A stretch of 64,000 nt of DNA from a virus (IMGVR_UViG_3300046170_000391), one strand, 5' to 3'; shown: positions 4,474-24,852, numbered from the stretch's first letter. Notes: generated from the sequence alone by a model not told the origin. Made by a program: numbers and translations.

Positions 4474-5791
4474 TAGGTTTTCCTTTTGCGTTTAAACTCG
4501 TGTTTATCAGTATGGGGTATCCATATTGTCTGGTTATCTCTAGTACTTTCCAAATATAAGCATTTTTATTGCGACTAACTAGTTGAAGACGAGCTGATTT
4601 ATCATGAGTAGTAAAATTACCTCCAATAATATCAGCAACAAATAGCATATCATGACTAGGCTGATAAATCTTAAACCACGTATCAGCTTCTTCTTCTTGA
4701 CAAATAGGGGCATAAGGCCTCCAGGAATCTGTATCACGTTTCTTAATTTTGTTTAATTTTTTAATATTATCATTTGTAGGAATACAGAGCAAGCTACGAT
4801 TACCTAATGCACGAGGCCCAAACTCAGCCTTTCCCTGTATAATAGGAACAATTTCTCCTTTTAGTAATCTTTCCGCCGCCTCATCTGTAGTGACATCATT
4901 AGTATCGGTTATCCCTAAATAAGCACTCTCCCATAAAGGTCTACAAATTAATGCCGCTGCTCCTAAAGCACACCCTGCATCTCCTGCTGCAGGTTGTATC
5001 GCTACTGAATCAAATCCTGAGTGTTTTTTTATTTTAGTATTAGCGACACAGTTTAATGCTACTCCTCCTGCATATGCTAAGTTTTTCATACCAGTTTCTT
5101 GTTGGAGCCACGTAGCCAACGCAAGAAGAACATTTTCAGTAACTCTTTGAACTGAAGCAGCAACATCCCAATCTAAAATACCGTAACCAACACCACGTTC
5201 AAGGTTATGCAATAGAGTGTAATCTCCATCCGCATTCCAATCTATTATTTTTTGATTTATCCAAGGTAACCACTTCGGCTCTCCATGAGCAGCTGCTGCC
5301 ATTACTTGAGACTCATCACAAAGAGGTTTAAGTCCCAAGAAACGAGTAGCACTAGAGTAAAATAAACCAATAGAGTTTGGATACATAAACCTTTTAATCC
5401 ATTCAATTTTGCCATTTTGATAAACTCCTAAAGATGTTGAATATTTACCTCCTACGGTATCTACCACCATAACGGCACACTCATACCAATCAGTCAAAAG
5501 GACAGAGCTCATAGCATGTGCTTCATGATGATCTACTAAAACAGGTTGAGCTTTAGTAATCTTTTTAATTTCTGATTTAAAATCGTTGTAAGTAGACTCT
5601 TCATAAAAAGCAGCAAACTCAAAGTCTTCATATACATCTTGCAACCATTTTACTGTATTATGAGGGAAGGATTTATCATATTTTTTACGAGTAAAACGTT
5701 CCTCATGAGAAGCACCAACTATTGAAGTATCTTTTATAAATGCTGCAGCGCTATCGTGGTGATAACAGCTGACTCCTAGTATGTTCATCAA
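4424..5791 (-). CDS. Carbamoyltransferase (NodU/CmcH/TobZ family)
   Basis: HDSAAA, EERFTRKK, HHEAHA, GGVALNC, EFGPRALGNRS, RPYAP, NTSLN. Confidence 0.9.
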   Translation of the reverse strand: MMNILGVSCYHHDSAAAFIKDTSIVGASHEERFTRKKYDKSFPHNTVKWLQDVYEDFEFAAFYEESTYNDFKSEIKKITKAQPVLVDHHEAHAMSSVLLTDWYECAVMVVDTVGGKYSTSLGVYQNGKIEWIKRFMYPNSIGLFYSSATRFLGLKPLCDESQVMAAAAHGEPKWLPWINQKIIDWNADGDYTLLHNLERGVGYGILDWDVAASVQRVTENVLLALATWLQQETGMKNLAYAGGVALNCVANTKIKKHSGFDSVAIQPAAGDAGCALGAAALICRPLWESAYLGITDTNDVTTDEAAERLLKGEIVPIIQGKAEFGPRALGNRSLLCIPTNDNIKKLNKIKKRDTDSWRPYAPICQEEEADTWFKIYQPSHDMLFVADIIGGNFTTHDKSARLQLVSRNKNAYIWKVLEITRQYGYPILINTSLNAKGKPIVNTVEDYKREVQVSN

Positions 5792-11545: not shown

Positions 11546-12598
11546 GTGCCTTTATCAATCCCCAGTATTCCCCATAAATCAAGAATGAAGGCTCATAAAC
11601 TTCAATACTTAAGAGCCATATCTGATTCTATGGATTATCCTTTTCAATCTGAAGATGGAAGAGATCCTTCTGCCTCACATCAAGAATTAACAGAAACTTG
11701 TGTTGAATATACTGACATACCTTACTGGCAGTTTACAAACTGTTGTACTGACTCACTACAAATCGCTTTTTCAATGTTGTGCAAAGTAGGAGATACAGTC
11801 ATCGTACCTGCTTATGGTTGGAGAGCGGTAACAAATGCTCCACAGTTTGTAGGTTTAAATGTTATATATTGTGATATTGATGAGACAGGTAACGTTAGTA
11901 TTTCAGAGTTGCATCGTCTAATATATGAAAATCAACCTGCTGCAATACTAATAATTCACAATTTCGGCACGGTAGTAGACGTATCAGAATTAACAGGTAT
12001 TTGTGAAAAGTACGGTGTTAAAATTATTGAAGACGCTGCCCAAGCATTTGTAATGAAAGAACCCTATGACTATAAAATTGGTTCTTGCGCTGACATAGTA
12101 TGTTTTTCTTTTGATTTTACTAAATCTCCTGGTACCTTAGGTGCTGGAGGGGCAATAGCTACTTATAATCCAGATCATTTTACAAAAATTAAATCAATTT
12201 GTTCTCATATCACTAATGAGTTGGGAATTGGGACAAAATCGTATTTAGATACTACTGCAGCAGCAGTGCTCAATTGTGATATAAAACTTATAGAGCAAAT
12301 GCAGTATAGACAGCGTAGAGTCGAAGTTGCTACTTACTATATAAACAAACTTCCTTATGAAACTCTGAGCGGAAAAAATTATATCTTTCATCGTTTTATA
12401 ATTTTACCTGATAAAAGTGAAAAACAAGATCTAATTAACAAACTAAAGTCACAAAAAATTCTAGCTAAACCTGTATATAAACCTAATACAGATGCTTGTA
12501 CTTATGCAAATAGATTCTACGAGAGTGCAATTGAGCTCCCTTGTCATCAGTTTATTGATGTAAATGACTTAAATTCAAGAATTGAAAAAATATTATGA
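11546..12598 (+). CDS. DegT/DnrJ/EryC1/StrS PLP aminotransferase
   Basis: IIEDAAQA, CFSFDFTK, GAGGAI. Confidence 0.85.
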   Translation: MPLSIPSIPHKSRMKAHKLQYLRAISDSMDYPFQSEDGRDPSASHQELTETCVEYTDIPYWQFTNCCTDSLQIAFSMLCKVGDTVIVPAYGWRAVTNAPQFVGLNVIYCDIDETGNVSISELHRLIYENQPAAILIIHNFGTVVDVSELTGICEKYGVKIIEDAAQAFVMKEPYDYKIGSCADIVCFSFDFTKSPGTLGAGGAIATYNPDHFTKIKSICSHITNELGIGTKSYLDTTAAAVLNCDIKLIEQMQYRQRRVEVATYYINKLPYETLSGKNYIFHRFIILPDKSEKQDLINKLKSQKILAKPVYKPNTDACTYANRFYESAIELPCHQFIDVNDLNSRIEKIL

Positions 12599-13527
12599 AG
12601 ATACTAATAACAGGCGGAATGGGTTTTATTGGAGCACACTTAGTAGCAGAATTAGGACGCACTCATGACATAGATATTTTAGACGGTTTTGATGAAAACT
12701 ACGTAGGCTACAAATATATACATAGAGGGACAAAAGGTTTACAAGAAACTAATGAGATTGAAAAACGTCATAGAAAACTAAATCTAAAGTATAGACTTGA
12801 TTTAGTAAAAGGTAAATTCAATCAATACTATAGAAAATGGAGTTTTGAAGATATTCCAAGAGCAAATTATGATTTAGTACTTAACTTTGGGGCTTTATCA
12901 GAAGCTATCTTATCTCAACATTTTCCAAAATTTACTTCAGATTCTATAGTGCAAGGATTAAATCTAATTAAATTGTACCTTCCTAAGACACCTGTCTTAC
13001 ATATAAGTAGTAGCATGGTTTACGGCACTTGGGAAGGAGTAATTGACGAGCAGTACTCTTTAGGAGCTGTGGACCATTACGGGGACAGTAAAATAAAGGC
13101 AGAAACTATCTGCGGAGAGAATGACGTAATTTTGCGACCCATACATGTTTATGGTATGGGAGATGGTAAATTCTCAATCTGGATGAATATAGAAAGACAG
13201 ATTGCAGCTGCAAAACCTGTTATGGTTGAGAGGGCAGGATGTATATACATAGACGATTTCGTTTTAGCAATCAAAAATATTTTAGACAGATGGCGTCCTG
13301 GCATTTATAATATTTCATACACATTCACTAGAAATGCTGAAGCATTAACTAATACTTATCCAGAAACTTTTGACGTTCAATATAAGTCAGGACCCACGGG
13401 TAAACCTAGAGGGCTGCTAGATAATAGCAAACTAATAAATACATTTAATGTGAACTTTAAGTTTACAAATTATATAGATACTGTGAGAGACTATTATAGA
13501 ACATATGAAAATTTTTGTAAGAAATAA
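12595..13527 (+). CDS. NAD-dependent epimerase/dehydratase
   Basis: ITGGMGFIG, SSSMVYG, YGDSK. Confidence 0.85.
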   Translation: MKILITGGMGFIGAHLVAELGRTHDIDILDGFDENYVGYKYIHRGTKGLQETNEIEKRHRKLNLKYRLDLVKGKFNQYYRKWSFEDIPRANYDLVLNFGALSEAILSQHFPKFTSDSIVQGLNLIKLYLPKTPVLHISSSMVYGTWEGVIDEQYSLGAVDHYGDSKIKAETICGENDVILRPIHVYGMGDGKFSIWMNIERQIAAAKPVMVERAGCIYIDDFVLAIKNILDRWRPGIYNISYTFTRNAEALTNTYPETFDVQYKSGPTGKPRGLLDNSKLINTFNVNFKFTNYIDTVRDYYRTYENFCKK

Positions 13528-13834
13528 TGATGTTGGAAAAGCACTTCGCATCTTAAAGAAAAAATTACACAATGAAGGTGTAATGAAAGAAGTAAGAGAT
13601 AGACGTCATTTTATTTCAAAAGGCGAGCAAGATCGTTTAGCTAAAAAAGCAGGGGTTAAACGTTGGCATAAAAAACGAGAAGAATTAGAGAAACAATTTA
13701 TTCGTGAAGAACGAAATATGCTACGTAACAGCAGGAAAAATAAAAGAAATGTTCAAAGATCTAACAAAAGTTCAAATCAACAGCGAACGCAACGCTACTC
13801 TAGCGATAAGAATAAACGATCATCACGTTCATAA
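13505..13834 (+). CDS. rpsU: 30S ribosomal protein bS21 with basic C-terminal extension
   Basis: VRNNDVGKALRILKKKLHNEGVMKEVRDRRHFISKGE. Confidence 0.85.
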   Translation: MKIFVRNNDVGKALRILKKKLHNEGVMKEVRDRRHFISKGEQDRLAKKAGVKRWHKKREELEKQFIREERNMLRNSRKNKRNVQRSNKSSNQQRTQRYSSDKNKRSSRS

Positions 13835-14057
13835 TCTTGTGCTAAGTTTAGACAATTTTGCTTTCATTCTAAATAAGAATGTCAATTCATGGAAAGGTTT
13901 AATTCATAATAAAACATGGGAGTTCAGAAAACTTTCTGATCGTGTTAAATTATATGATCAAAGCTATGAATATCATTACCGTTTCTCCCTTGAAGAATGG
14001 GAAACTATAAGACAACAATTTGCAGCAGCTTTACTTGAAAGTAATCTTGCTAAGTAG
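13749..14057 (+). CDS. Hypothetical protein
   Basis: Probable start MFKDL at 13749. Confidence 0.55.
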   Translation: MFKDLTKVQINSERNATLAIRINDHHVHNLVLSLDNFAFILNKNVNSWKGLIHNKTWEFRKLSDRVKLYDQSYEYHYRFSLEEWETIRQQFAAALLESNLAK

Positions 14058-14076
14058 TTATTTACTTTTCTATAAT
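14047..14076 (+). promoter_or_regulatory. Sigma70-type promoter
   Basis: TTGCTA-N18-TATAAT. Confidence 0.6.
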
Positions 14077-14099
14077 ACCTTATAAATATGGAGGTTTAT

Positions 14100-14348
14100 A
14101 TGAAAGCATACAAAGGTACGTTTAAAAAGAAAAATGGTGAATCACGTGATATGGTTTTTGCTAGACTATATGATTTACCGCAAAAGTTTCTTGACGAAAA
14201 AGTACAAGGAGCAGGTTCTGAGCAAAAATATCCAGAAGGTATGGAACTCGTTTGGGATCTAGAAGCAGATAACTTTAGAATTTTTAATTGGAAATCTGTA
14301 GATAACGACCCGAAAGAATTTGATATTGACGAAACTCTTTTTAGATAA
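14100..14348 (+). CDS. SH3/WYL-like small protein
   Basis: FKKKNGESRDM...VWDLEADNFRIFN; SD GGAGG before ATG 14100. Confidence 0.6.
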   Translation: MKAYKGTFKKKNGESRDMVFARLYDLPQKFLDEKVQGAGSEQKYPEGMELVWDLEADNFRIFNWKSVDNDPKEFDIDETLFR

Positions 14349-14637
14349 TGAACCTTTTATTCTTGTAGAAACAGAAATTGTAAATTTTAAAGAGCTTAAA
14401 GCAGGTAATATTAACTTAATGTACTACATTATTGAAATACATAATACAGAAAATGATGAAATAGGAGTAGTGACAGAAGAGATAGATGGTGAACAGATTA
14501 TCAAAAAATTTGATACCTGGTCTAAGGCAAAGGCTATGTCTGGAACACTAAATAGAGATACCCCTGAAAATCTCTCTACTCACATAGTAACCATTAATGA
14601 AACTGCTACAAAAGATAAAGAAGTGGATAACGATTGA
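14320..14637 (+). CDS. Hypothetical protein
   Basis: ORF in operon; true start may be ATG 14419. Confidence 0.45.
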   Translation: MILTKLFLDNEPFILVETEIVNFKELKAGNINLMYYIIEIHNTENDEIGVVTEEIDGEQIIKKFDTWSKAKAMSGTLNRDTPENLSTHIVTINETATKDKEVDND

Positions 14638-14971
14638 CCATTGTGTTGATCTTGTCGTTGATATATTGTTAATTGTATGGGAAGTTATCAGTAGTCCAAT
14701 ACTTATAGCTATGCGTCTTATAAGGCACTTTGTAGGTGAGTGGATAACAGATAAAATTAAAGCAGGAGTGCGTAAAATAGCACACTGGTTTGAGCATAAA
14801 AGAGAGTATAGATTAAAAAACGGATATGGAATATTTCGTACATATTGGTGGTTAATTATTTCAAGTCCTATAATTATATTTATCAGTATTTTTATTGTAG
14901 CTATACTGTCAGGATTACACGAAGGTTTAAATATAGCTTTCGAAGAAATTAGTGCTTCGTTTGAGGAGTAG
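14597..14971 (+). CDS. Hypothetical membrane protein
   Basis: Two hydrophobic segments. Confidence 0.55.
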   Translation: MKLLQKIKKWITIDHCVDLVVDILLIVWEVISSPILIAMRLIRHFVGEWITDKIKAGVRKIAHWFEHKREYRLKNGYGIFRTYWWLIISSPIIIFISIFIVAILSGLHEGLNIAFEEISASFEE

Positions 14972-14977
14972 TATAAT

Positions 14978-15018
14978 AGACGGACTGGACTCGGGGGCAG
15001 TACCCGACGGCTCCACCA
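14978..15018 (+). ncRNA. ssrA: Two-piece tmRNA, acceptor piece
   Basis: GAC-TCGGG-GGCAGTA-CCCGA-CGGCTCC-A-CCA: T-arm with alphaproteobacterial GGCRGWA loop, acceptor 3' strand, encoded CCA; 5' end uncertain. Confidence 0.9.
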
Positions 15019-15036
15019 TAAACACAGGAATAACAC

Positions 15037-15252
15037 ATGAAAGAATATATGTTAATAATCAGCATGTGGGGAAGTGATGGAAGCACAGAGCATTACATTG
15101 GTCAGATGGTTTTACAACAACCAATGAGTAAATCTCAGTGTGAGTGGATGATTGAGGATGAACAGTGGGGTGCAAGTTTTGATAATGAGTATTACTTCTT
15201 TGCTAGACACTGTATGCCGAAAGATTGTGCTGGAAAAGATTCCTGTGACTAA
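15037..15252 (+). CDS. 71-aa hypothetical protein nested in the tmRNA intervening segment
   Basis: SD AGGA at 15026, ATG 15037, TAA 15250-15252; 4 Cys. Confidence 0.7.
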   Translation: MKEYMLIISMWGSDGSTEHYIGQMVLQQPMSKSQCEWMIEDEQWGASFDNEYYFFARHCMPKDCAGKDSCD

Positions 15253-15274
15253 ACACTATTGGTGTGTTTATGAT

Positions 15275-15446
15275 GGGGCCGAAATAGGATCGACAGACGT
15301 AATAAAAACAATGCCGAGAAGCAGGTGCGCAAGCGACCTCAACCGCAAGAAAACAAACAATTGCAAATGATAATTTCGCAATCGAGGACTACCGCATAGC
15401 GGCATAGTCTCACGGGGTATGGCTCCACCTAGCAACAGAACGGGCC
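15275..15446 (+). ncRNA. ssrA: Two-piece tmRNA, coding piece; tag (A)ANDNFAIEDYRIAA* at 15363..15407
   Basis: GGGGCCGAAATAGGATCGAC 5' end pairs with CGGCTCC giving the G3:U70 Ala identity pair; ANDN...AA tag; terminal GGGGT..CACCTAGCAACAGAA pseudoknot typical of alphaproteobacterial tmRNA. Confidence 0.92.
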
Positions 15447-15469
15447 TTTACAACTCTTATGAGGATTAA

Positions 15470-16612
15470 ATGTTTAATTTTAATACAACTCCACGTTTAG
15501 TAATCGGCGCAAATAGATTACAGTTCTTAGGCACACTTCTTTCCGACCTTGGAATCAAAAACCCTTTAATAGTGACAGGTCCTAATCTTGCAAAATCTAA
15601 AATCATAACTGAGACACAAAAATGGTCTTGGACTGATAATGTATTCTGTGATTTAGTACAGGATCCAACGACTCAGAATGTGTTAGACTGTGTTGAATAT
15701 GGAATAAGTAAAGACGTAGATGGAGTTATTGGTATCGGGGGTGGATCATCTCTTGATGTAGCAAAAGTTGCTTCTGTGTTATTAAAACAGGAAACATCTT
15801 TAGAAAACATTTGGGGTGTAGACAATGTTTATAGTTCAAGACTACCTTTAATTCTTATACCTACCACCTCGGGGTCAGGATCAGAAGTTACCCCAGTTTC
15901 AATTATTACAACAGGTGAGACAACAAAAATGGGAATTGTTTCTCACAGAATCATTCCAGATGCAGCAATTCTTGACCCTCTTCTTACAGTTTCTTGTAAC
16001 CCTCAACTAACTGCATATAGCGCAATAGATGCGATGGTTCATGCTATCGAATCATACACTTCTATAAATCCCAATAACAATCCTTACTCAAAAATGCTTG
16101 CACTTGAAGCTTGTCGCTGGTTAGGTAAATCAACAAAAACTGCCATCTTAGAGCCAAGTAATATCGAAGCAAGAGCTAATGTACAATATGGATCTATGTT
16201 GGCCGGGCAGGCATTTGGTAATTCGCCAGTAGCAGCAGTTCATGCATTAGCCTACCCACTAGGTGGGTACTTTAAACTGCCACATGGTTTAACAAATACT
16301 TTGGTTCTTCCTGGTGTTTTAGAGTATAATCAAGAAAATACAGACTATTCAACTCTTGCTACTGCTTTATTTCCTCATGATGAAGGAGAAATATACTACT
16401 ATAAAGGTGATGTTGTTGAAGTAATGTGCAGAAATATCAAAGAATTAGCAGAGTTAGCAGGAATCGAAACTCGAATGAGTGATTATGGAATCAGTGCAGA
16501 GCATATTCCAATGTTAGCAGAAGAGGCAATGAAACAATCTAGGCTCTTGGTAAATAATCCGAGAGAAATTACAGAAGAAGTTGCAAAAGAAATTTACTGG
16601 GAAGTTCTATAA
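15470..16612 (+). CDS. Iron-containing alcohol dehydrogenase
   Basis: GGGSSLD, PTTSGSGSE, DAMVHAIE, HALAYPLGG, PHG. Confidence 0.9.
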   Translation: MFNFNTTPRLVIGANRLQFLGTLLSDLGIKNPLIVTGPNLAKSKIITETQKWSWTDNVFCDLVQDPTTQNVLDCVEYGISKDVDGVIGIGGGSSLDVAKVASVLLKQETSLENIWGVDNVYSSRLPLILIPTTSGSGSEVTPVSIITTGETTKMGIVSHRIIPDAAILDPLLTVSCNPQLTAYSAIDAMVHAIESYTSINPNNNPYSKMLALEACRWLGKSTKTAILEPSNIEARANVQYGSMLAGQAFGNSPVAAVHALAYPLGGYFKLPHGLTNTLVLPGVLEYNQENTDYSTLATALFPHDEGEIYYYKGDVVEVMCRNIKELAELAGIETRMSDYGISAEHIPMLAEEAMKQSRLLVNNPREITEEVAKEIYWEVL

Positions 16613-17241
16613 TGTATAAAACTTATATTCTAGGGAATGGCGGATACGCTCAAGAATGCTTTGAACAATTTGTACTAGGCAGAGTTATAGAAGATTTCGG
16701 GGGATTTATTATCCTAAAAGAAGGTAAAGCAGTTCTTATTAACGATGAAGGTATAAATAATTTTACTTACCCTAAAGAATCTGCATTTATGCTAGGGACT
16801 GGGCACCGTAAGTGGCGTAAAGTATTTTTAGATCATTTATTTGGTTATTATGAACAGAATATTAATCATTTTCCAAATATGATAGCTAATGAAGCACACT
16901 TATCACAAACTTCTACTCTAGGTATAGGTAATGTACTTAATTGCTTTGCTATGACAAATGCTAATGCTAATATCGGAGATTTTAATCTTTTAAACTGTTA
17001 TGCATCAGTTCATCATGACGTAACGATGGGAAGTCACAATATATTTACAACGTATGCTACCGTGCTAGGGTATTGTACAGTAGGAGATGATAACTGGTTT
17101 GGTAATGCAGTTACAGTAACATCAAAAACAAATATCGGTAATGATAATACACTTAGTTCTGGCGAACATCTTTTTGAAGATATGAGCACTCGTCAATTCT
17201 TTAAACACGGTATTGTTACAGAGAAACCTATAAAACAATGA
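16612..17241 (+). CDS. Sugar O/N-acetyltransferase, NeuD/PglD hexapeptide family
   Basis: GNGGYA N-terminus, IGDF/VHHD/VGDD hexapeptide repeats. Confidence 0.8.
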   Translation: MYKTYILGNGGYAQECFEQFVLGRVIEDFGGFIILKEGKAVLINDEGINNFTYPKESAFMLGTGHRKWRKVFLDHLFGYYEQNINHFPNMIANEAHLSQTSTLGIGNVLNCFAMTNANANIGDFNLLNCYASVHHDVTMGSHNIFTTYATVLGYCTVGDDNWFGNAVTVTSKTNIGNDNTLSSGEHLFEDMSTRQFFKHGIVTEKPIKQ

Positions 17242-18008
17242 TTATTTTTTTTAGAAGCTGTGAAGCAAACTTAAAAGCTGGATCTCTTGGAGACGAAGTT
17301 ACGGGTGATGGTATTCGCTGGAATGGTAAACATAAATTAGAAATTATTCGTAAATGTTATCTTTCAATTCAATCTAGCTTAGATGAGCGTGATTTAATCG
17401 TAGTAATTGATGATAGAACGACTAAAGATACCCTTAACTGGATGAGAGACAACACTAAAGCCCAATTTAGGGTACACCCCATTACCCCCTTACCTGAACT
17501 AAGAGCAAAAGATCCTTATCCTAATTATCATCCTGTTATGGCTAATTCATGTCCAGAAATCATGGAACATTTAGTGAGTGTTTCAGAAGAAAATCCTGAT
17601 GAAATTATATACATCTGTGAGGACGATTATCTTCATCTACCTCAAGCAATACTTGCAATGAAAGCTTTATTTGGTCAAGGATATAGTGGGTTTTATGCCC
17701 CACAAGATTATCCTGATAGATATACCTTAGACTCTAGTAGGGTATGTGAAGTACATGTGGGGCCTTATGGGCATCTAAGATCAATTCCAAGCTCAACACT
17801 TACTATCGCAGCAAAGGGCACTACTTGGCTTCAGTATAAGTATGAAATACTCAGAGCAGGAGCTTTTGCAGATGATACATGGACTTGGAAAGCTTTTAAA
17901 CAAGTTGGCTGTCTATGTCCCCTACCAGGCCACTCTACTCACCTACAAGAAGGGTGTATTAGCCCTTGTATAAACTGGGAACAAGTATATGAAGGCATTA
18001 GTTTATAA
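17238..18008 (+). CDS. Glycosyltransferase, GT-A fold
   Basis: VIDD, YICEDDYLH. Confidence 0.65.
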   Translation: MIIFFRSCEANLKAGSLGDEVTGDGIRWNGKHKLEIIRKCYLSIQSSLDERDLIVVIDDRTTKDTLNWMRDNTKAQFRVHPITPLPELRAKDPYPNYHPVMANSCPEIMEHLVSVSEENPDEIIYICEDDYLHLPQAILAMKALFGQGYSGFYAPQDYPDRYTLDSSRVCEVHVGPYGHLRSIPSSTLTIAAKGTTWLQYKYEILRAGAFADDTWTWKAFKQVGCLCPLPGHSTHLQEGCISPCINWEQVYEGISL

Positions 18009-18011
18009 TAT

Positions 18012-18992
18012 ATGAAATTTATACTTAGAAAAGACATAAAAATAGATCTTTTTGAGAGGCATCTTAGAAAGGCTAGAGCAAGTAATCAATTTTCTAATTA
18101 CGGAGCTGCGGTACAAGACCTAGAATTAAAAGCTCGTGAAATGCTTAAAATTGATGATTCAAAAGCTATAATAGCTGTGAATAACGGCTCTTCATGTGTT
18201 ACTACTATAGTATACGCTTTTCAGAGGGCTTTTGGTAATCATCTTAACGTGCTCACTCAAGATTTTACATTTCCCTCTAATGCACAAATCGGGGCAAGCG
18301 GCGCTCAAAAAACAGATTTTACAGACGCTTTAGATATACATTTGGACTTTCCTTATTGGGATCAAATAAAAATAGTAATTGTAACTAACATATTTGGTCA
18401 CTTGCAAGACTTAAACATGATAATTAATAAATGTAATGATTCAGATAAACTATTAATATTTGATAACGCGGCCACTCCATATTCTTTTTATGAAGGAACT
18501 AATTCGTGTAATTTAGGAACAGCTTCTTATATTTCTCTTCACCATACTAAGCCTCTTGGTTTCGGAGAAGGAGGGTTAGTAATAATCAATAAAGAATACG
18601 AGAAAGAGGCTAGGGCAGTTATAAATTTCGGTCCGACCGAGGGCAATGAGTTTAATGAAAGAGGTAGCAATTTTAAAATGAGTGAGATTGCGGCAGCGGG
18701 AATTCTTCAGTGGTGGGATCAATTCGATATTGAAGACCTAAAAGAAAAATTCCTTAATAATTACTTTAAGAAACGTTATGAGTTAGCAAATCAAAAAGGT
18801 ATTTTTTATCCAAATAAAGGAGATGATAACTTTTTTCCTTCATGTTTACCTTTTATCCACGATAATCCTACAGAAGCAAACAAAGACAATGAAGAATTTA
18901 AGTATTATAAGCCCTTAGTGGGTTTGCAAAATTCTAAACTTGTGTATGAAAACATTATCTGTTATGGGCTAACTGAGGATTGGTATGTATAA
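18012..18992 (+). CDS. DegT-family PLP aminotransferase
   Basis: IFDNAA, SLHHTKPLGFGEGG, NFKMSEIAAA. Confidence 0.85.
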   Translation: MKFILRKDIKIDLFERHLRKARASNQFSNYGAAVQDLELKAREMLKIDDSKAIIAVNNGSSCVTTIVYAFQRAFGNHLNVLTQDFTFPSNAQIGASGAQKTDFTDALDIHLDFPYWDQIKIVIVTNIFGHLQDLNMIINKCNDSDKLLIFDNAATPYSFYEGTNSCNLGTASYISLHHTKPLGFGEGGLVIINKEYEKEARAVINFGPTEGNEFNERGSNFKMSEIAAAGILQWWDQFDIEDLKEKFLNNYFKKRYELANQKGIFYPNKGDDNFFPSCLPFIHDNPTEANKDNEEFKYYKPLVGLQNSKLVYENIICYGLTEDWYV

Positions 18993-19962
18993 TAAATCAG
19001 CAGTAGTTACTGGATGTCTTAGCTTTATTGGGGTAGCGTTGACCGAAAAATTACTTCGCGAAGATTGGCAAGTATATGGTATAGATAAATTAACTTATGT
19101 AGCTAACACTAAATTAATTTCGTATTTTAAAACAACTTACAAAGATAACTTTACTTTGGTCTCGGAAGATATTAAAGATGTTAAATGGCTACCTGCTTGT
19201 GATGTAGTTTTTAATATTGCAGCAGAATCAGATGTTGATAATGGTAATAAAGATTGTTCTCAGTTTATTAGTTCAAATATTGAGGGTGTACGAAACTTAC
19301 TAAGTCTTATTAATTCAAGAATTATTACTAAAGCAGATAAACCTTTATTTTTTCAAATGTCTACAGATGAAGTTTATGGAGATCTTGAAGAAGGAGTTTT
19401 TGACGAAAATGCACCTCTTAGACCATCTAATCCTTATGCCGCTACAAAAGCAAGTGCTGACCTACTTATCCAAAGCTGGGCACGTACTCACGGGTTAGAG
19501 TACCTTATAGCTAGACCTTCAAATAACTACGGATACTATCAGTATCCAGAAAAATTAATTCCTTTAGCAGTAAAACAGTTATCAAGGGGTAAGAAAATAA
19601 AACTTCACAATGAAGGAAAACCTATTAGAAGTTGGACGCACTCAGAAGATACAGCAGAAGCAATCCTAACATTATATGACAACGCTGATAGAAATAAAGT
19701 TTATAATATTTCATCAGAATATGAGCAAACAAATCTCGATACTGTTAAAAAAATCATAAACTCTTACTTTTTAGGAACTATAAGTAGAGAGGTGCCCAAT
19801 TATACTAGTCATATAGATCTGGAGTACTCAAGGCCAGGGCAAGACGTGAGATATGCAATTTCTTGTAATCCTTTAAAAGAATTACAATGGAGACCTAAAA
19901 AAGAATTTAATCAAGAGATAGTAAAGTTAGTGGAAAATTATAAGAAAGGATGGACATGGTAA
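18985..19962 (+). CDS. rfbB: dTDP-glucose 4,6-dehydratase
   Basis: DKLTY, AAESDVD, STDEVYG, PYAATKASAD, NNYG.YQYPEKLIP, RPGQDVRY. Confidence 0.9.
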   Translation: MYNKSAVVTGCLSFIGVALTEKLLREDWQVYGIDKLTYVANTKLISYFKTTYKDNFTLVSEDIKDVKWLPACDVVFNIAAESDVDNGNKDCSQFISSNIEGVRNLLSLINSRIITKADKPLFFQMSTDEVYGDLEEGVFDENAPLRPSNPYAATKASADLLIQSWARTHGLEYLIARPSNNYGYYQYPEKLIPLAVKQLSRGKKIKLHNEGKPIRSWTHSEDTAEAILTLYDNADRNKVYNISSEYEQTNLDTVKKIINSYFLGTISREVPNYTSHIDLEYSRPGQDVRYAISCNPLKELQWRPKKEFNQEIVKLVENYKKGWTW

Positions 19963-20963
19963 TGAGAGTATTTATTACAGGGATAGGAGGATTACTAGGT
20001 AGTAACTTAGCTAATTTCTTAATTGGACAAGGGCATGAAGTAGCGGGTATAGATAATATGATAGGGGGAGTAGATGATAATATTCCTATCGGGGCTAAAT
20101 TTCATGAAGGTGATATTACAGACACAAAGTTGATGAAAGAGATAACTGAAGGGTATGAAGTAATTTTTCATGCAGCTGCTCTCCCATACGAGGGTTTGAG
20201 TGTTTTCTCCCCAGCAGTGACAGTAAATTCAATTGTTTCGGGAACTGTGTCAGTAGCTTCGGCAGCTCTGCACAACAAAGTAAGATTATTAATAAACTGC
20301 TCTTCTATGGCTCGATACGGAGATCAAATACCCCCGTTTACAGAAGATATGCCTACTAAGCCTGTTGATCCTTATGGACTTGCTAAAGTACAGGCTGAAG
20401 AACATTTAGAAATGTTGAGTAATATACATGGACTAAACTATATTACTGTAGTTCCTCATAATGTTATTGGGGTAGGTCAAAGATATTATGACCCTTTTAG
20501 AAATGTGATGGGAATTATGATTAGTCGCTGCTTACAGGGTAAACCTTTAGTGATTTATGGGGATGGAGAACAACAAAGATCATTTTCTAATGTAAGTGAT
20601 TGTATAAAAGCTGTTTATCAAATAATGATAACAGATAGAGATATTTGTGGACAAGTTTATAATATCGGGCCAGATGATAATGAGATATCTATTAAACAAC
20701 TTGCGTATAAAGTAGGACATCATTGCGAGAAATACCCGTCTTTAGAGCATTACCCAGATAGGCCCCAAGAAGTAAAAAATGCTTTTTGTTCTTCAGATAA
20801 GATAAGAAAAGACTTTAACTATAATGCAGCAGTTAAATTAGACACTACTATAATTGATATGGTTTCGTGGATTAAACCACGACTCCGTGAGTTTGAGTAT
20901 CATCTAGAATTAGAATTTATTACAGATAAAACACCTAAAACATGGACAGATAAGTTGATATAA
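19950..20963 (+). CDS. NAD-dependent nucleotide-sugar epimerase/dehydratase
   Basis: ITGIGGLLG, SSMARYG, PYGLAK, GDGEQQRSF. Confidence 0.88.
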   Translation: MDMVMRVFITGIGGLLGSNLANFLIGQGHEVAGIDNMIGGVDDNIPIGAKFHEGDITDTKLMKEITEGYEVIFHAAALPYEGLSVFSPAVTVNSIVSGTVSVASAALHNKVRLLINCSSMARYGDQIPPFTEDMPTKPVDPYGLAKVQAEEHLEMLSNIHGLNYITVVPHNVIGVGQRYYDPFRNVMGIMISRCLQGKPLVIYGDGEQQRSFSNVSDCIKAVYQIMITDRDICGQVYNIGPDDNEISIKQLAYKVGHHCEKYPSLEHYPDRPQEVKNAFCSSDKIRKDFNYNAAVKLDTTIIDMVSWIKPRLREFEYHLELEFITDKTPKTWTDKLI

Positions 20964-20964
20964 A

Positions 20965-21141
20965 ATGAAAAATAGACCAGGAAGTGTAGAACTCAATTTA
21001 TTATACGCTCTTCAATGGGAGCAATACGATTTTCATGTGTCCGATCATAAAAAAAAATGGGATTTATCAGAGGAAGAAGCAAGAGCAGTTAACAAATGGA
21101 TTTCAGCACGAATAAAGGATATCAAAGATAGATGTCTGTAA
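20965..21141 (+). CDS. Small hypothetical protein (58 aa, not in ORF track)
   Basis: MKNRPGSVELNLLYALQWEQYDFHVSDHKKKWDLSEEEARAVNKWISARIKDIKDRCL exactly fills gap. Confidence 0.55.
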   Translation: MKNRPGSVELNLLYALQWEQYDFHVSDHKKKWDLSEEEARAVNKWISARIKDIKDRCL

Positions 21142-21872
21142 AAATAATAACTCCATATGTATTTGAGAATGAAATAAAAAAACACAAAGAAACCTTCTGG
21201 GAATATGATATTTATTATGAGCAGGATATTGCTGGTATAGGTTGCGATTTGATGTTTCAAAAAATGTGGAATCGTTTTCCTGATGATGACATATTTATTT
21301 TACACGCAGACATGGATCTTCACCATGATGGGTGGTTTGAGGAGGTGCTAGAGTATGTCGAAAAGTACCCAGAAGCAGGAATGTTTGGTTGTTTGTTATT
21401 GTACCCAGCAAAAAACGAGAGTAGCAAATATTTCATACAGTGTGCAGGAGGAAAATTCACTGACAATAGACCAGATCACTTCGGAAGTGGGCTCATACTT
21501 GAAAACGGGCAAACTTTCAAACAAGAGTTGGAAATTGATAAGGGACAATACGATACCACGCGATCCGTCGCCTGGACAACATTTGGAGGTTGTTACCTCA
21601 GAAGGGAATTTTTGGATTCCGTGGGCAACTTTGACACCACCTTTGAATGGACGTACAACAGAGATGTCGATTACTGCTTGTCTGGAAGAAAAAATGGTTT
21701 CAGCATCTATCAGATTCCTGTACGACTCTTCCATCATGAATCAAGGGATACTAAAAGAATAAAAGATAAAAGTAAAGCAGCTATGGAGATGAGAAACCTT
21801 GAACGTTTACAGACGAAATGGGCAAACTCAAAATTTTACAAAACGCTGGACAAGGAGATAAAAAGTGAGTAA
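21132..21872 (+). CDS. GT2-family glycosyltransferase
   Basis: ILHADM, RDVDYCL, HHES. Confidence 0.75.
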   Translation: MSVKIITPYVFENEIKKHKETFWEYDIYYEQDIAGIGCDLMFQKMWNRFPDDDIFILHADMDLHHDGWFEEVLEYVEKYPEAGMFGCLLLYPAKNESSKYFIQCAGGKFTDNRPDHFGSGLILENGQTFKQELEIDKGQYDTTRSVAWTTFGGCYLRREFLDSVGNFDTTFEWTYNRDVDYCLSGRKNGFSIYQIPVRLFHHESRDTKRIKDKSKAAMEMRNLERLQTKWANSKFYKTLDKEIKSE

Positions 21873-22086
21873 AGTATTCATAAGTAAAAAAGAATTAGAA
21901 GAAGCGGTATTACGCAAGAAAAATAAAATGACTCCTTTCCTATTTATTTTTGTGTGGTTTTATGCAATAGTATGTTTAGTAACTTTGCTACCTGTAGCAT
22001 TTATATGGTGTGCATTTACTTTAGCAGTTATTCTTGCGTATTTACCGTTTTACTTCATTGATAAAATTTTGTTTGAAAAGGAATAA
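21865..22086 (+). CDS. Small membrane protein
   Basis: Long hydrophobic hairpin. Confidence 0.5.
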   Translation: MSKVFISKKELEEAVLRKKNKMTPFLFIFVWFYAIVCLVTLLPVAFIWCAFTLAVILAYLPFYFIDKILFEKE

Positions 22087-22088
22087 AT

Positions 22089-22829
22089 ATGAGTAAACTA
22101 AATCACGCCTGGGTAAAGGCATCTTTAGAGCAGTCAGATAACGAAAGATCAAAGATATCAGAGAGAGAAAGAGAACTACACGGATTATCCTCTACACGCC
22201 TGAAATGTCTTATTAATAATCTCTGCGCAGCAGAAAAAACAAACTATTTAGAAATTGGGGTATACAAAGGATCTACCATTATATCGGCGGTTATGGGTAA
22301 CGAAGTAAAAGCTATAGGTGTTGATAATTTTATGTACGACGAGAGAGAGCCTAGAAAGTGGGCCCCGGAAGGTGATATTTGGTACAATGTAAAATCTCAA
22401 ATGGAGGCAAATATCAAACGATATGATCTCCATCCAGAAACCAAAATTCCAGGAGCAATAACTCTCATTGAAAAACCTTTTGAGGAAGTAGATTGGGTCA
22501 AGCAGCCTAAGTTTAACGTATGTTTATTTGATATCTCTCCTATAAATCAAAAAGTCTATGATGATTTTTTTGAAAAAGTTATAGTGTCCTTAGCACAAGA
22601 ATGTGTCGTAGTATTTACCGGACAATCAAATGCTCAACATGCAGAAGAGCTTAATAAAAGTTTACTTCGCCACCAAGACAAGTTAGACATTCAGTATAGT
22701 GAACTAAGAATATCTGGAGGATTAGCTGACGCTACTAGATACTACAGCGGAATCAGAGTTATCGGCATTAAGAAAAAATCAGGGTCATTTATCAAAAAAC
22801 CTGTAGCAAATACCACCCCTAAGAACTAA
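22089..22829 (+). CDS. Class I SAM methyltransferase-like (Methyltransf_24)
   Basis: YLEIGVYKGST, GVDNF. Confidence 0.7.
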   Translation: MSKLNHAWVKASLEQSDNERSKISERERELHGLSSTRLKCLINNLCAAEKTNYLEIGVYKGSTIISAVMGNEVKAIGVDNFMYDEREPRKWAPEGDIWYNVKSQMEANIKRYDLHPETKIPGAITLIEKPFEEVDWVKQPKFNVCLFDISPINQKVYDDFFEKVIVSLAQECVVVFTGQSNAQHAEELNKSLLRHQDKLDIQYSELRISGGLADATRYYSGIRVIGIKKKSGSFIKKPVANTTPKN

Positions 22830-22838
22830 GAGGAATTA

Positions 22839-23687
22839 ATGTTAAAAAAATCTGTAATTAGTTTAATTAGTTACGACGCTAATAGGTTTCTAGCTAATAG
22901 CATTAAAACATATTATAACTATGTTGATGAGATTATTTTAGGTCTCGATAAAAATAGAGTAACATGGAGTGGGAATCCCTTCTCTCTTGACGAAGAAACA
23001 TTATGGTCAGACCTTCAAGCTATTGATGGAGACAGTAAAATATCAATTATTGAAGAAGATTTTAAAAAATCTGATGTACCAATTGAGAATGATAATTTTG
23101 AAAGAAATTTTCTAAAAGAACAATGCTCAAATGACTGGATCTTTTCGTTTGATGCAGATGAAGAATTACTTAATGCAAAAGAATTTTTTTATGACTACTG
23201 CCCTATTCTTGAGAAATACTATAACAAGGTAGATATTCTTATGACTTGGTGTACTCCTTACAAAGAAATAGTAAATGATGAAGGAGAGTCTTATACTTTG
23301 ATGATTGCTAATGACGATAGTTCACCATTTTTTGGAGAAAACCAAGGAGTAGTGACTTCTAAAGATAGTACATTTACTTATGCTAGATGGACCGACAAAA
23401 GTGCGCAAGGAACTAATAGAGTAACTTCTCCTCTAGTTTCTTTACATTGGAGCTTATGTAGACCTTCTGATGAACTACACGAGAAAATTCATAATATAGG
23501 TCATTCAGATATAGTAGAAAACGATCCATTTTTTCAAATATGGAAAGATGTTACGTGGGATAATTATCATGAGTTGAGAAACTTTAAAACATCAGGACTA
23601 GGATCTGCGCAATGGCCTAAATTAGAGGCTGTTCCTACACAGCACGTAAAAAATTACGTTAATCAATATTTAGCAGGAGCATACTAA
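22839..23687 (+). CDS. GT2-like glycosyltransferase
   Basis: ERNFL..DWIFSFDADE. Confidence 0.7.
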   Translation: MLKKSVISLISYDANRFLANSIKTYYNYVDEIILGLDKNRVTWSGNPFSLDEETLWSDLQAIDGDSKISIIEEDFKKSDVPIENDNFERNFLKEQCSNDWIFSFDADEELLNAKEFFYDYCPILEKYYNKVDILMTWCTPYKEIVNDEGESYTLMIANDDSSPFFGENQGVVTSKDSTFTYARWTDKSAQGTNRVTSPLVSLHWSLCRPSDELHEKIHNIGHSDIVENDPFFQIWKDVTWDNYHELRNFKTSGLGSAQWPKLEAVPTQHVKNYVNQYLAGAY

Positions 23688-23688
23688 T

Positions 23689-24852
23689 ATGATAATTGAG
23701 ATTATTGGTAAATTTTTCGATAACCACTCGTTATCTATAATTAATAGAAATATAGCAATTAGATTAATGAATAATGATTCTGTTGAATTATTAATTACTC
23801 CATTAGACACTTATGACCCAGTACATAAAGTAGATAAAAACACTATCAAAAAGCTAAAAGAGCTTAATAATAAAGAAGCTTCTGATACTCCTGATATACA
23901 AGTTAGACATTGTTACCCACCTGTATGGACATGGCCTGTTCACGAAAAAACAAAGGTTATATTTATACAGCCTTGGGAATTTTTAAAAGCACCATTTGAG
24001 TGGCAATACAAATTTGAAACTTTTGCTGACGCGCTAATCGTACCTAGTAACTATGAAGCTGATGTTTTCAAACTAGGAGGACTTAATCCTTCAAATCTTT
24101 TTGTAGTACCTAATGGCTATGATGAAAATATCTTTAATACAGAAGATACTAATAATAATCATCCGTCAGTTAATAAAGATAAATTCAATTTTATATATGT
24201 AGGTAATCCGCAATGGAGAAAAGGGCTAGATATATTAATTAATGTATGGGGAAAAGCGTTTAAGAAATATGATAATGCGCATCTCATCATTAAGGATACT
24301 CCTCGTATATATGGAAAAAATAATATACTTAGTGAGATTATTAAAATGCAGTACAAATCGGGATGCGCTGGTATTACCTATTTAGATGATGATATGTCTG
24401 ATTTAGAAATGGCAGAATTATTTAAAAGTTGTGATATTGTCGCACACCCCTATAGAGCTGAAGGATTTGGTATGCATGTACAAGAAGCTATAGCGTGCGG
24501 ATGTGTCCCTATTATACCTGATCAAGGTCCTACAAATGATTTTGTTCCCGAGGGTGCTGGTATTAAATTCAAAACTAATAAAGAAGCGATTGATATAACT
24601 AATGGACAGATCTTTGCTACTAAACCTGGAGATGCTATGACTTTAATGAGCAGTCATACTTTTACAAATGAACCTGATGGACAAAGTGTCGAAGGTGCTT
24701 TAAAATACGTATATCATCATCATGATAAAAAAGAATTATTTAAGTGTATATCAAATGCAGAACTCAATACATGGGACTCAGTAGTAGATAAGTATATGGA
24801 GGTATTTTTAAATGTCGGACAACGTGAAAAAGCTAATAGATTCAGATATTGA
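23689..24852 (+). CDS. GT4 (GT-B) glycosyltransferase
   Basis: VVPNG, RKGLD, PYRAEGFGMHVQEAIACG. Confidence 0.85.
   Translation: MIIEIIGKFFDNHSLSIINRNIAIRLMNNDSVELLITPLDTYDPVHKVDKNTIKKLKELNNKEASDTPDIQVRHCYPPVWTWPVHEKTKVIFIQPWEFLKAPFEWQYKFETFADALIVPSNYEADVFKLGGLNPSNLFVVPNGYDENIFNTEDTNNNHPSVNKDKFNFIYVGNPQWRKGLDILINVWGKAFKKYDNAHLIIKDTPRIYGKNNILSEIIKMQYKSGCAGITYLDDDMSDLEMAELFKSCDIVAHPYRAEGFGMHVQEAIACGCVPIIPDQGPTNDFVPEGAGIKFKTNKEAIDITNGQIFATKPGDAMTLMSSHTFTNEPDGQSVEGALKYVYHHHDKKELFKCISNAELNTWDSVVDKYMEVFLNVGQREKANRFRY

What the first reader, a model, noticed from the sequence alone, without database searches (positions are those of the whole stretch)
14978..15446. Protein gene nested inside the intervening segment of a permuted two-piece tmRNA
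Seen: the acceptor piece ends in CCA at 15018 and the coding piece starts GGGGCCG at 15275. The 256-nt spacer holds an SD (AGGA) and an intact 71-aa ORF (15037-15252). The spacer ends pair as a 10-bp helix extending the acceptor stem (CATAAACACA 15017-15026 with TGTGTTTATG 15263-15272), so the ORF is looped out of the pre-tmRNA. TAAACAC occurs twice (15019-15025 and 15250-15256, the second supplying the ORF stop codon). Removing one copy plus the insert restores a short hairpin spacer, TAAACAC-tattggt-GTGTTTA. Established: alphaproteobacterial ssrA is permuted and the spacer is excised during maturation (RNase P at the coding-piece 5' end, 3' processing to CCA). Inference: a gene was inserted with a 7-bp duplication, and maturation would release a free mini-mRNA. 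The second TAAACAC competes for the same GTGTTTA, so a ribosome terminating on the ORF stop could switch folding and couple translation to tmRNA maturation.
Basis: partly seen in the sequence, partly recalled or inferred. Interest (0 to 1): 0.9.

Follow-up and report, generated by a model that had tools for sequence, protein, structure and literature searches.

The report
Protein gene inside phage tmRNA spacer
An uncultured marine phage carries a working-looking two-piece tmRNA gene whose cut-out spacer holds a real, selected 71-codon protein gene; related phages have that spacer empty or holding other small genes, a layout I did not find described in the papers I could search.

Summary
Rfam finds an alpha-type permuted tmRNA at 14903-15449. 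The acceptor piece ends in CCA at 15018 and the coding piece starts at 15275. The 256-nt spacer holds a ribosome-binding site and a 71-codon ORF (15037-15252).

The ORF is a real gene. Full-length homologues (63-77% identical) stand alone in small-gene arrays of other phages. A syntenic relative, L350, keeps the same spacer. It has 31 changes in the ORF, 21 of them at third codon positions. It has none in the 40 non-coding spacer bases and none in the mature acceptor piece.

Equally close relatives have a 111-nt spacer with a different ORF, or an empty 25-nt hairpin. Of 215 distinct phage or metagenome spacers, 91 hold an ORF, from well over 20 families. None of 107 distinct bacterial spacers holds a convincing one.

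The proposed 7-bp target duplication is not supported. The second TAAACAC lies in a remnant of an earlier cargo ORF. The ribosome-driven switch is untested, although predicted folding does change on excision. No RNA data could be obtained, so expression is inferred.

This scan has flagged the same layout on other genomes. I found no paper describing it.

The parts
14954..15018 (+). tmRNA acceptor piece (tRNA-like 3' half). T stem-loop 14991-15007, acceptor 3' strand 15008-15014, discriminator A 15015, encoded CCA 15016-15018.
   Evidence: Rfam RF04321 starts at 14954 and RF01849 aligns the T arm and acceptor strand. From 14963 to 15018 there is no difference from syntenic relative L350, whose flanks are 14-18% diverged.
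15019..15274 (+). Intervening segment (256 nt), absent from the mature tmRNA.
   Evidence: It lies between the encoded CCA and the 5' G of the acceptor stem, and is modelled by Rfam as one insertion. The same 256-nt segment is in L040, L430 and L350.
15017..15026 (+). 5' strand of the 10-bp closing helix that extends the acceptor stem.
   Evidence: Exact complement of 15263-15272. Pairing probability in the folded precursor is 0.42-0.99. The helix is conserved with covariation across phage spacers.
15026..15029 (+). Shine-Dalgarno-like AGGA, 7 nt before the start codon, abutting the closing helix.
   Evidence: Read from the sequence. The 18 nt at 15019-15036 are identical in L350.
15037..15252 (+). 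71-aa ORF (P0001), a small phage protein of unknown function. Predicted strand-strand-helix-strand fold.
   Evidence: Homologues at 77, 65 and 63% identity over the full length. A profile search finds 44 representative clusters. pN is 0.10-0.37 against pS 0.70-0.88. 21 of 31 differences from L350 are at codon position 3. AlphaFold2 pLDDT is 86.7. No Pfam, PHROG, PDB-fold or Atlas name.
15250..15270 (+). Second TAAACAC (15250-15256), 7-nt loop, and GTGTTTA (15264-15270). This is a local hairpin and a remnant of an earlier cargo ORF's 3' end.
   Evidence: The hairpin is -6.0 kcal/mol and has pairing probability 0.87-0.98 in the excised spacer alone. The region 15251-15262 matches the family-H ORF ends of L332, L420, L394, L418, L296 and L448 at 8-10 of 12 positions. 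It is unchanged in L350.
15263..15272 (+). 3' strand of the closing helix. The bases at 15271-15274 are the conserved TGAT just before the RNase P site.
   Evidence: TGAT ends 87 of 129 phage spacers.
15275..15449 (+). tmRNA coding piece. Acceptor 5' strand 15275-15281 (with G3, which pairs with U). Tag reading frame 15363-15407.
   Evidence: Rfam. The tag translates to ANDNFAIEDYRIAA plus stop. There are 4 differences from L350 in 180 nt. The three in the tag are one synonymous, one Ile to Val, and TAG to TAA.

Best explanation
This is a functional, phage-encoded, alphaproteobacterial-type two-piece tmRNA gene. Its intervening segment serves as a slot for a small protein-coding gene.

Shown:
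- The two tmRNA pieces, the closing helix and the tag frame are intact and under purifying selection.
- The 71-codon ORF in the spacer is a bona fide protein gene, and it stays under protein-level selection while in the spacer.
- Equally close phage relatives carry a different ORF or an empty hairpin in the same place.
- Across marine phage tmRNAs the spacer holds well over 20 unrelated small ORF families, always on the tmRNA strand. Bacterial spacers are short and non-coding.

Inferred:
- The gene is transcribed as part of the pre-tmRNA.
- RNase P cutting at 15274/15275 and 3' trimming to CCA at 15018 free both tmRNA pieces and a roughly 256-nt RNA. That RNA has an 18-nt leader, the ORF and a 3' hairpin.
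- The ORF is translated from the nascent precursor, from the excised RNA, or from both.
- Cargo is exchanged by recombination between phages, with the conserved tmRNA halves acting as homology arms. The swapped unit includes the T arm and the acceptor-stem pairs.
- In this lineage the gene displaced most of an earlier cargo ORF, whose last codons remain as the local hairpin.
For: tmRNA identity and integrity:
- Rfam scores are 110.7 and 95 bits.
- The acceptor stem has the G3:U pair and CCA is encoded.
- The tag is ANDNFAIEDYRIAA.

Selection, from the comparison with syntenic L350 (flanks 82-86% identical):
- 0 differences in the mature acceptor piece.
- 0 of 18 and 0 of 22 in the non-coding spacer ends.
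- 31 of 216 in the ORF, 21 of them at position 3.
- 4 of 180 in the coding piece, conservative within the tag.

The gene is real:
- Full-length homologues sit in other contexts with no tmRNA nearby.
- pN is far below pS.
- The family has 44 representative clusters.
- A confident fold is predicted.

The spacer behaves as a slot:
- L431, L388 and L303 have a 111-nt spacer with another ORF. L441 and L315 have an empty 25-nt spacer. Both groups have flanks 81-86% identical to the window, as close as L350.
- One tight tmRNA subclade holds at least 12 cargo families.
- 91 of 215 distinct spacers hold an ORF of at least 25 aa covering at least 65% of the spacer, including 33 of 35 at 201-260 nt.
- The longest ORF has a median of 61 aa on the tmRNA strand and 26 aa on the other strand.
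- Other spacer ORF families also show dN/dS of 0.1-0.3.

Bacterial control: median spacer 28 nt, maximum 139 nt, no convincing ORF.

A single precursor cleaved by tRNA-processing enzymes is the published model for permuted tmRNA (PMC11915505, PMC9004378).
Against: - There is no RNA or protein evidence.
- The protein's function is unknown.
- The ribosome-binding site abuts the closing helix, so translation and helix formation may interfere. Which RNA species is translated is open.
- The loci were collected with sequence patterns and capped at 120 rows per scan. The frequencies describe those samples, not all phages or bacteria.
- Phage origin rests on a T5-like replication module and on IMG/VR membership of near-identical L040. 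No structural genes lie in the window.
Confidence: 0.8

Rival explanations
1. A gene inserted into an empty hairpin spacer with a 7-bp target-site duplication. A ribosome terminating on the stop codon inside the second repeat then switches the fold and couples translation to tmRNA maturation.
For: - The repeat exists and is conserved in L040, L430 and L350.
- Removing one copy plus the insert gives a 25-nt hairpin of the same size as real empty spacers (24-29 nt), some with the same helix, such as L391.
- Folding predicts two mutually exclusive pairings for GTGTTTA.
Against: - The sequence around the second repeat is homologous to the 3' end of family-H spacer ORFs in sister tmRNAs (8-10 of 12 matches against 7 or fewer for 160 others). 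Five of the seven repeated bases are already present in those ORFs.
- No transposase, terminal inverted repeats or other mobile-element marks are present.
- A second family member in a spacer, L093, has no such repeat.
- The local hairpin is seen only in this lineage and L059, against 78 spacers predicted to form panhandles.
- The predicted switch follows from excision alone and needs no ribosome.
Confidence: 0.08
2. The ORF is a passenger that is not translated from this position. It would be a recently captured gene fragment or a selfish cassette kept only because the spacer tolerates it.
For: - The closest known analogue, the S23p ORF in the Coxiella 23S rRNA intervening sequence, appears not to be made in vivo (PMC4990558 abstract).
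- The ribosome-binding site abuts a stable helix.
- Decaying cargo exists elsewhere. L418 has lost its start codon.
Against: Within the spacer context itself (window against L350), substitutions are biased to the third position and the frame is intact over divergence as deep as the neighbouring genes. The divergent member in L093's spacer is also intact, with dN/dS about 0.2.
Confidence: 0.07
3. The two tmRNA pieces and the ORF are separate transcription units. The ORF, or the ORF plus the coding piece, has its own promoter, and the pieces assemble in trans, so nothing is 'excised'.
For: Weak sigma-70-like matches (9 of 12) lie inside the spacer at 15030-15059, 15159-15186 and 15245-15274. No RNA data exclude this.
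Against: - The count of promoter-like matches is within about 1.6 sd of shuffled sequence (18 found, mean 12.8, sd 3.3).
- A transcript started from the last match would begin inside the mature 5' end, and the acceptor stem needs G15275.
- The complementary spacer ends are perfectly conserved and covary across the family, as expected for pairing in cis within a precursor.
Confidence: 0.08
4. The insertion has inactivated the tmRNA, and the locus is a decaying ssrA relic that now serves only as a small gene.
For: ARAGORN does not call it. The spacer is about nine times the bacterial median.
Against: - Both pieces score well above the Rfam cut-offs.
- They are far better conserved than the flanking genes, and changes in the tag are conservative.
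- The acceptor-stem pairs covary between alleles.
- ARAGORN also misses relatives with empty spacers.
Confidence: 0.03

Closest known systems
Phage-encoded two-piece (permuted) tmRNA of marine T4-like myophages: OM43 phage Melnitz and pelagimyophages (PMC9004378)
   Same: An alpha-type permuted ssrA carried by a marine phage, with an ANDN...AA-type tag. Melnitz's own 142-nt spacer also starts with TAAACAC, ends with GTGTTTATGAT and contains an ORF.
   Different: The paper and the GenBank record annotate only the tmRNA and a downstream glutamine riboswitch, with no spacer ORF. The present phage is a different lineage (T5-like PolA at 40% identity, no nucleotide match to any cultured phage) and has no riboswitch.
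Bacterial alphaproteobacterial two-piece tmRNA (Rfam RF01849; Caulobacter model, Keiler et al. 2000, as cited in PMC9004378 and PMC11915505)
   Same: The same gene order, acceptor stem, encoded CCA and tag frame. One precursor is cut by tRNA-processing enzymes.
   Different: In 107 distinct bacterial spacers sampled with the same motif, the spacer is a short non-coding hairpin (median 28 nt, maximum 139 nt, no convincing ORF).
Intervening sequences of bacterial 23S rRNA that carry the S23p ORF (Coxiella burnetii, Leptospira; PMC4990558)
   Same: A protein ORF sits in a segment that is cut out of a stable-RNA precursor without re-ligation, closed by a stem.
   Different: That segment is in rRNA helix 45 rather than a tmRNA. 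It carries one ORF family, and the Coxiella protein seems not to be made. Here there are many unrelated cargo families, clear purifying selection, and presumed excision by RNase P and 3' trimming. The RNase III role and the Leptospira case are from my own knowledge.
tmRNA genes interrupted by group I introns, some with LAGLIDADG homing endonuclease genes (PMC11915505)
   Same: A protein gene is nested inside a tmRNA gene and removed from the mature RNA.
   Different: The intron sits in the T loop, self-splices and re-ligates, and its cargo is a homing nuclease. Here there is no intron, no ligation is needed, and the cargo has no nuclease features.
Permuted tmRNA spacers with non-protein cargo: a tRNA-Ala gene, a repetitive element (PMC11915505)
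   Same: These show that the spacer tolerates large inserts. The longest tmRNA gene reported there is 1152 bp.
   Different: That cargo is RNA or repeat sequence, and each case was reported as a single oddity. No protein-coding spacer is mentioned in a database of 97,179 sequences.

Membership tests
Alphaproteobacterial-type permuted (two-piece) tmRNA (RF01849 / RF04321) | Covariance-model score above the curated gathering cut-off | tested here: met
   110.7 bits against 50, and 95 bits against 47
Alphaproteobacterial-type permuted (two-piece) tmRNA (RF01849 / RF04321) | Permuted order: T arm, acceptor 3' strand and CCA lie upstream of the acceptor 5' strand and tag-coding part | tested here: met
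   T arm 14991-15007, CCA 15016-15018, GGGGCCG at 15275, tag at 15363-15407
Alphaproteobacterial-type permuted (two-piece) tmRNA (RF01849 / RF04321) | Seven-pair acceptor stem with the G3:U pair that marks alanine identity | tested here: met
   15275-15281 pairs with 15008-15014, with G15277 opposite T15012. Stem pairs covary in L431 and L441.
Alphaproteobacterial-type permuted (two-piece) tmRNA (RF01849 / RF04321) | Tag reading frame starting at an alanine resume codon and ending in a hydrophobic ...AA degron plus stop | tested here: met
   ANDNFAIEDYRIAA plus stop. L350 differs by one synonymous change, Ile to Val, and TAG to TAA.
Alphaproteobacterial-type permuted (two-piece) tmRNA (RF01849 / RF04321) | Processing into two base-paired RNAs, alanylation, SmpB binding and trans-translation | not testable with these tools
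   No RNA data.
Small phage protein family of P0001 (unnamed) | Full-length sequence homology with the conserved WG, GQ, C35, N50, Y53 and C59 positions | tested here: met
   E-values 1.6e-36 to 7e-28. Profile search finds 44 clusters. Conserved columns in A3.
23S rRNA intervening sequence with S23p ORF | ORF belongs to the S23p family and the element sits in 23S rRNA helix 25 or 45 | tested here: not met
   No Pfam family matches the ORF. The host RNA is a tmRNA. The resemblance is by mechanism only.
Group I intron-interrupted tmRNA | Group I intron core inserted in the T loop | tested here: not met
   No intron family reached its cut-off in the window. The insert lies between CCA and the 5' acceptor strand, not in the T loop.
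Transposable element with target-site duplication | Transposase or terminal inverted repeats, with a direct repeat created on insertion | tested here: not met
   The only ORF is the 71-aa protein, which matches no family. The direct repeat is accounted for by a remnant of an earlier ORF.

The most novel reading that the evidence does not exclude
The spacer may be a timing device and not only a passive slot. Cutting by RNase P and 3' trimming would turn a helix-closed precursor into a discrete mini-mRNA. Its predicted fold switches to a protective 3' hairpin, so the cargo protein would be made in step with tmRNA maturation. In 39 of the 91 ORF-bearing spacers the ORF runs across the RNase P site. 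The same cut would turn those into non-stop messages that the tmRNA itself would tag for degradation. That would be a self-referential circuit between a rescue RNA and the gene nested in it.
Probability: 0.15. Interest if true: 0.85.

Novelty: new variant of a known kind. Interest (0 to 1): 0.72.

Why it matters
The spacer of permuted tmRNA genes has been treated as disposable. Here it is a recurrent, exchangeable home for small protein genes in marine phages. One transcript would therefore serve both as a stable-RNA precursor and as a messenger.

Three consequences follow:
- **Annotation.** tmRNA finders can miss these genes. Gene callers split them or produce chimeric 'proteins' that read into the tmRNA, such as P0005.
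- **Phage evolution.** Conserved RNA halves acting as recombination arms would give a simple route for shuffling small genes between phages.
- **RNA biology.** The layout offers a natural test of how translation and tRNA-type processing share one RNA.

The cultured phage Melnitz has the same layout, so this can be tested at the bench.

Tried and rejected
- ARAGORN on the window found nothing. It also misses relatives with empty spacers, so this is uninformative.
- No whole genome is held for the window.
- An exact search for the predicted 25-nt empty spacer found nothing in viral contigs.
- Nucleotide and protein searches of cultured phages with the tmRNA region, 20 kb of the window, P0001 and two other cargo families gave no useful match.
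- Pfam and PHROGs gave no family for P0001. Foldseek against the PDB gave no significant match (best E 0.22). The ESM Atlas gave only unnamed viral clusters. Function stays unknown.
- The whole-precursor fold energy is not unusual (z = -1.1), as expected with a coding insert.
- Host inference by comparing the tmRNA with 109 bacterial tmRNAs gave no clear nearest relative.
- The original two-piece tmRNA papers (PMC16621, PMC516066) are not held. Their content is cited through PMC9004378 and PMC11915505.
- One clustering artefact was set aside. ORFs that read into the tmRNA share a tmRNA-encoded tail, which merges unrelated families (FAM0).

Full report
**Observation.**
- The acceptor piece ends in CCA at 15016-15018 and the coding piece starts with GGGGCCG at 15275.
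- The 256-nt spacer (15019-15274) has AGGA at 15026-15029 and an ATG-to-TAA ORF of 71 codons at 15037-15252.
- 15017-15026 is the exact complement of 15263-15272.
- TAAACAC occurs at 15019-15025 and 15250-15256.
- Rfam calls an alpha-type permuted tmRNA at 110.7 bits (cut-off 50) and 95 bits (cut-off 47), treating the ORF as one insertion between the acceptor strands.
- ARAGORN finds nothing. It also misses relatives with empty spacers, so its silence means little.

**The tmRNA looks functional.**
- The seven-pair acceptor stem has the G3:U pair and CCA is encoded.
- The tag frame reads ANDNFAIEDYRIAA followed by a stop.
- L350, from a 46-kb Tara scaffold, is syntenic with the window over about 12.6 kb at 76-80% nucleotide identity. 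Its flanking kilobases are 82-86% identical.
- Against L350 there are no differences in the mature acceptor piece (14963-15018) and only four in 180 nt of the coding piece. The three in the tag are one synonymous, one Ile to Val, and TAG to TAA.

**The ORF is a real gene.**
- A search of 5.8 billion proteins finds full-length homologues at 77, 65 and 63% identity.
- Their contigs show them as ordinary members of tightly packed small-gene arrays, with no tmRNA nearby.
- A profile search finds 44 representative clusters. Three more members that I checked also stand alone.
- Pairwise comparisons give pN 0.10-0.37 against pS 0.70-0.88.
- Most tellingly, selection acts while the gene is in the spacer. 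Against L350 the ORF has 31 differences in 216 nt, 21 of them at third positions and with no frame disruption. The 18 nt before it and the 22 nt after it have none.
- A divergent family member (about 45% identity) sits intact in the spacer of a different tmRNA, L093.
- The protein folds confidently as strand-strand-helix-strand (pLDDT 86.7). It has no named relative by Pfam, PHROGs, PDB fold or Atlas, so its function is unknown.

**Empty, filled and differently filled alleles.** I collected phage and metagenome tmRNAs with three sequence patterns and extracted the spacer of each. The tmRNA sits in a conserved gene neighbourhood shared by many contigs.
- L040, L430 and L350 share the window's 256-nt cargo.
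- L431, L388 and L303 carry a 111-nt spacer with a different ORF, a 34-codon hydrophobic peptide. Their flanks are 81-86% identical to the window, which is as close as L350.
- L441 and L315 carry an empty 25-nt hairpin, with flanks 82-85% identical.
- The alignment shows a near-identical tmRNA body. The varying block comprises the T stem, the acceptor-stem pairs (which covary) and the spacer.
- Within the tight subclade that shares the window's coding-piece start, spacers run from 24 to 311 nt and hold at least 12 unrelated ORF families. Some hold two ORFs in tandem.

**A general, phage-specific pattern.**
- Of 215 distinct spacers, 91 hold an ORF of at least 25 codons covering at least 65% of the spacer.
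- By spacer length, the fraction is 0 of 48 at 40 nt or less, 18 of 25 at 121-160 nt, and 33 of 35 at 201-260 nt.
- ORFs lie on the tmRNA strand. The median longest ORF is 61 codons on that strand and 26 on the other, and the tmRNA strand is longer in 74 of 87 spacers.
- Clustering gives well over 20 families. Those with several members show dN/dS of about 0.1-0.3.
- The closing helix between the spacer ends is paired in 86% of cells at the true register against 33-60% at shifted ones, with multiple pair types per position.
- As a control, 120 bacterial genome loci found with the same motif yielded 109 readable spacers (107 distinct). The median is 28 nt, the maximum 139 nt, and none holds a convincing ORF.
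- All scans were capped and pattern-dependent, so these are sample frequencies.

**The 7-bp duplication.** The arithmetic is right, and real empty spacers of 24-29 nt exist, one with the same helix (L391). The repeat is still better explained otherwise.
- In the frame that reads through the 3' helix strand, the window's last 27 nt encode the same ending as a spacer ORF family (here 'family H') found in sister tmRNAs L332, L420, L296, L394 and L448.
- The 12 nt before the helix strand match those six family-H spacers (L418 included) at 8-10 positions. All 160 other spacers match at 7 or fewer, with a mode of 3-4.
- Five of the seven repeated bases are already present in the family-H ends of L296 and L418.
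- The likeliest history is that the present gene replaced most of an earlier cargo ORF. A clean insertion into an empty hairpin with a target duplication is less likely.

**Folding.**
- In the modelled precursor the long-range helix dominates, with pair probabilities of 0.42-0.99.
- In the excised spacer alone the local hairpin formed by the second TAAACAC dominates (0.87-0.98), and the long-range pairs vanish.
- So a fold switch is predicted from excision itself. Nothing shows that a terminating ribosome drives it.
- This local hairpin occurs only in the window's lineage and L059. Seventy-eight other ORF-bearing spacers are predicted to form a panhandle.

**How it most likely works.**
- Published work holds that permuted tmRNA genes give one precursor, which tRNA-processing enzymes cut into two pieces (PMC11915505, PMC9004378).
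- On that basis the ORF is transcribed within the pre-tmRNA.
- It would be translated on the nascent precursor, before the 3' helix strand exists, or from the released spacer RNA.
- That RNA would have an 18-nt leader with the ribosome-binding site and a 3' hairpin.
- These steps are inferred. I could obtain no RNA data.
- Cargo turnover by recombination between the conserved tmRNA halves fits the block-wise differences but is also inferred.

**Comparison with what is known.**
- Phage two-piece tmRNAs are known from Melnitz and pelagimyophages (PMC9004378).
- The 2025 tmRNA database paper notes a tRNA gene and a repetitive element in spacers, and homing endonuclease genes in T-loop introns. 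It mentions no protein-coding spacer.
- Two further full-text searches found none.
- The nearest mechanistic analogue is the S23p ORF in 23S rRNA intervening sequences (PMC4990558).
- Melnitz, which is cultured, has a 142-nt spacer with the same helix and an unannotated ORF that resembles a spacer ORF in L088. A homologue of another cargo family lies just upstream of its ssrA.
- Earlier notes of this scan report the same layout on other genomes. I treated them as leads only.

Noticed in passing
window 13505-13834 (+): A phage-encoded ribosomal protein bS21 homologue (Pfam PF01165, 42.5 bits against a cut-off of 27) lies 1.1 kb upstream of the tmRNA. The phage therefore carries two translation-related genes close together.
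   Followed up: partly
window 4424-5791 (-) and 11546-24852 (+): The tmRNA sits inside a sugar-modification cluster. It includes a DegT-type aminotransferase, an NAD epimerase, an iron alcohol dehydrogenase (15470-16612), a hexapeptide transferase, a glycosyltransferase and a carbamoyltransferase. Downstream is a T5-like replication module with PolA, DnaB, an NAD ligase, SbcCD, ribonucleotide reductase and ThyX.
   Followed up: partly
L454 (Melnitz MZ577097) 1486-1627; ORF 1505-1669: The cultured OM43 phage Melnitz has a 142-nt tmRNA spacer with GGAG plus an unannotated ORF. About 41 codons lie in the spacer and the ORF reads on into the coding piece. Gene 85, immediately upstream of its ssrA, is a homologue of a cargo family that sits inside the spacer in L002, L155 and others.
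   Followed up: partly
91 ORF-bearing spacers among loci L001-L449: Where the spacer ORFs stop falls into classes. 27 stop inside the spacer. 25 use the TGA of the conserved TGAT just before the RNase P site. 25 stop at the conserved TAG 11-13 nt into the mature coding piece. 14 stop at other positions in the coding piece, mostly further in. The ORFs that cross the site would become non-stop messages after RNase P cleavage.
   Followed up: partly
L332, L420 (213 nt); L394, L448 (311 nt); L344, L446 (402 nt); L088 (499 nt): Some spacers hold two ORFs in tandem. One spacer, in L088, holds a 120-codon membrane-protein-like ORF. L418 carries a family-H ORF whose start codon has changed from ATG to ATA, which looks like decaying cargo.
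   Followed up: no
window 15023-15031 and 15239-15247: The 9 nt that include the ribosome-binding site are the exact complement of 9 nt at the end of the ORF, and they pair in the minimum-energy fold of the excised spacer. In L350 one pair becomes G-U and one is lost, so this may be chance.
   Followed up: partly
P0005 (Pacific Ocean Virome protein) and window 15152-15370 (+): Public protein sets contain chimeric 'proteins' that read from the spacer ORF region into the tmRNA. They carry a tmRNA-encoded tail (...YDGAEIGST...), which links unrelated spacer ORFs in clustering (FAM0).
   Followed up: partly
alignment A4 (window, L350, L431, L441): Between alleles the T stem and two acceptor-stem pairs change together with the spacer, while the rest of the tmRNA is nearly identical. 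This suggests recombination breakpoints inside the tRNA-like domain.
   Followed up: partly
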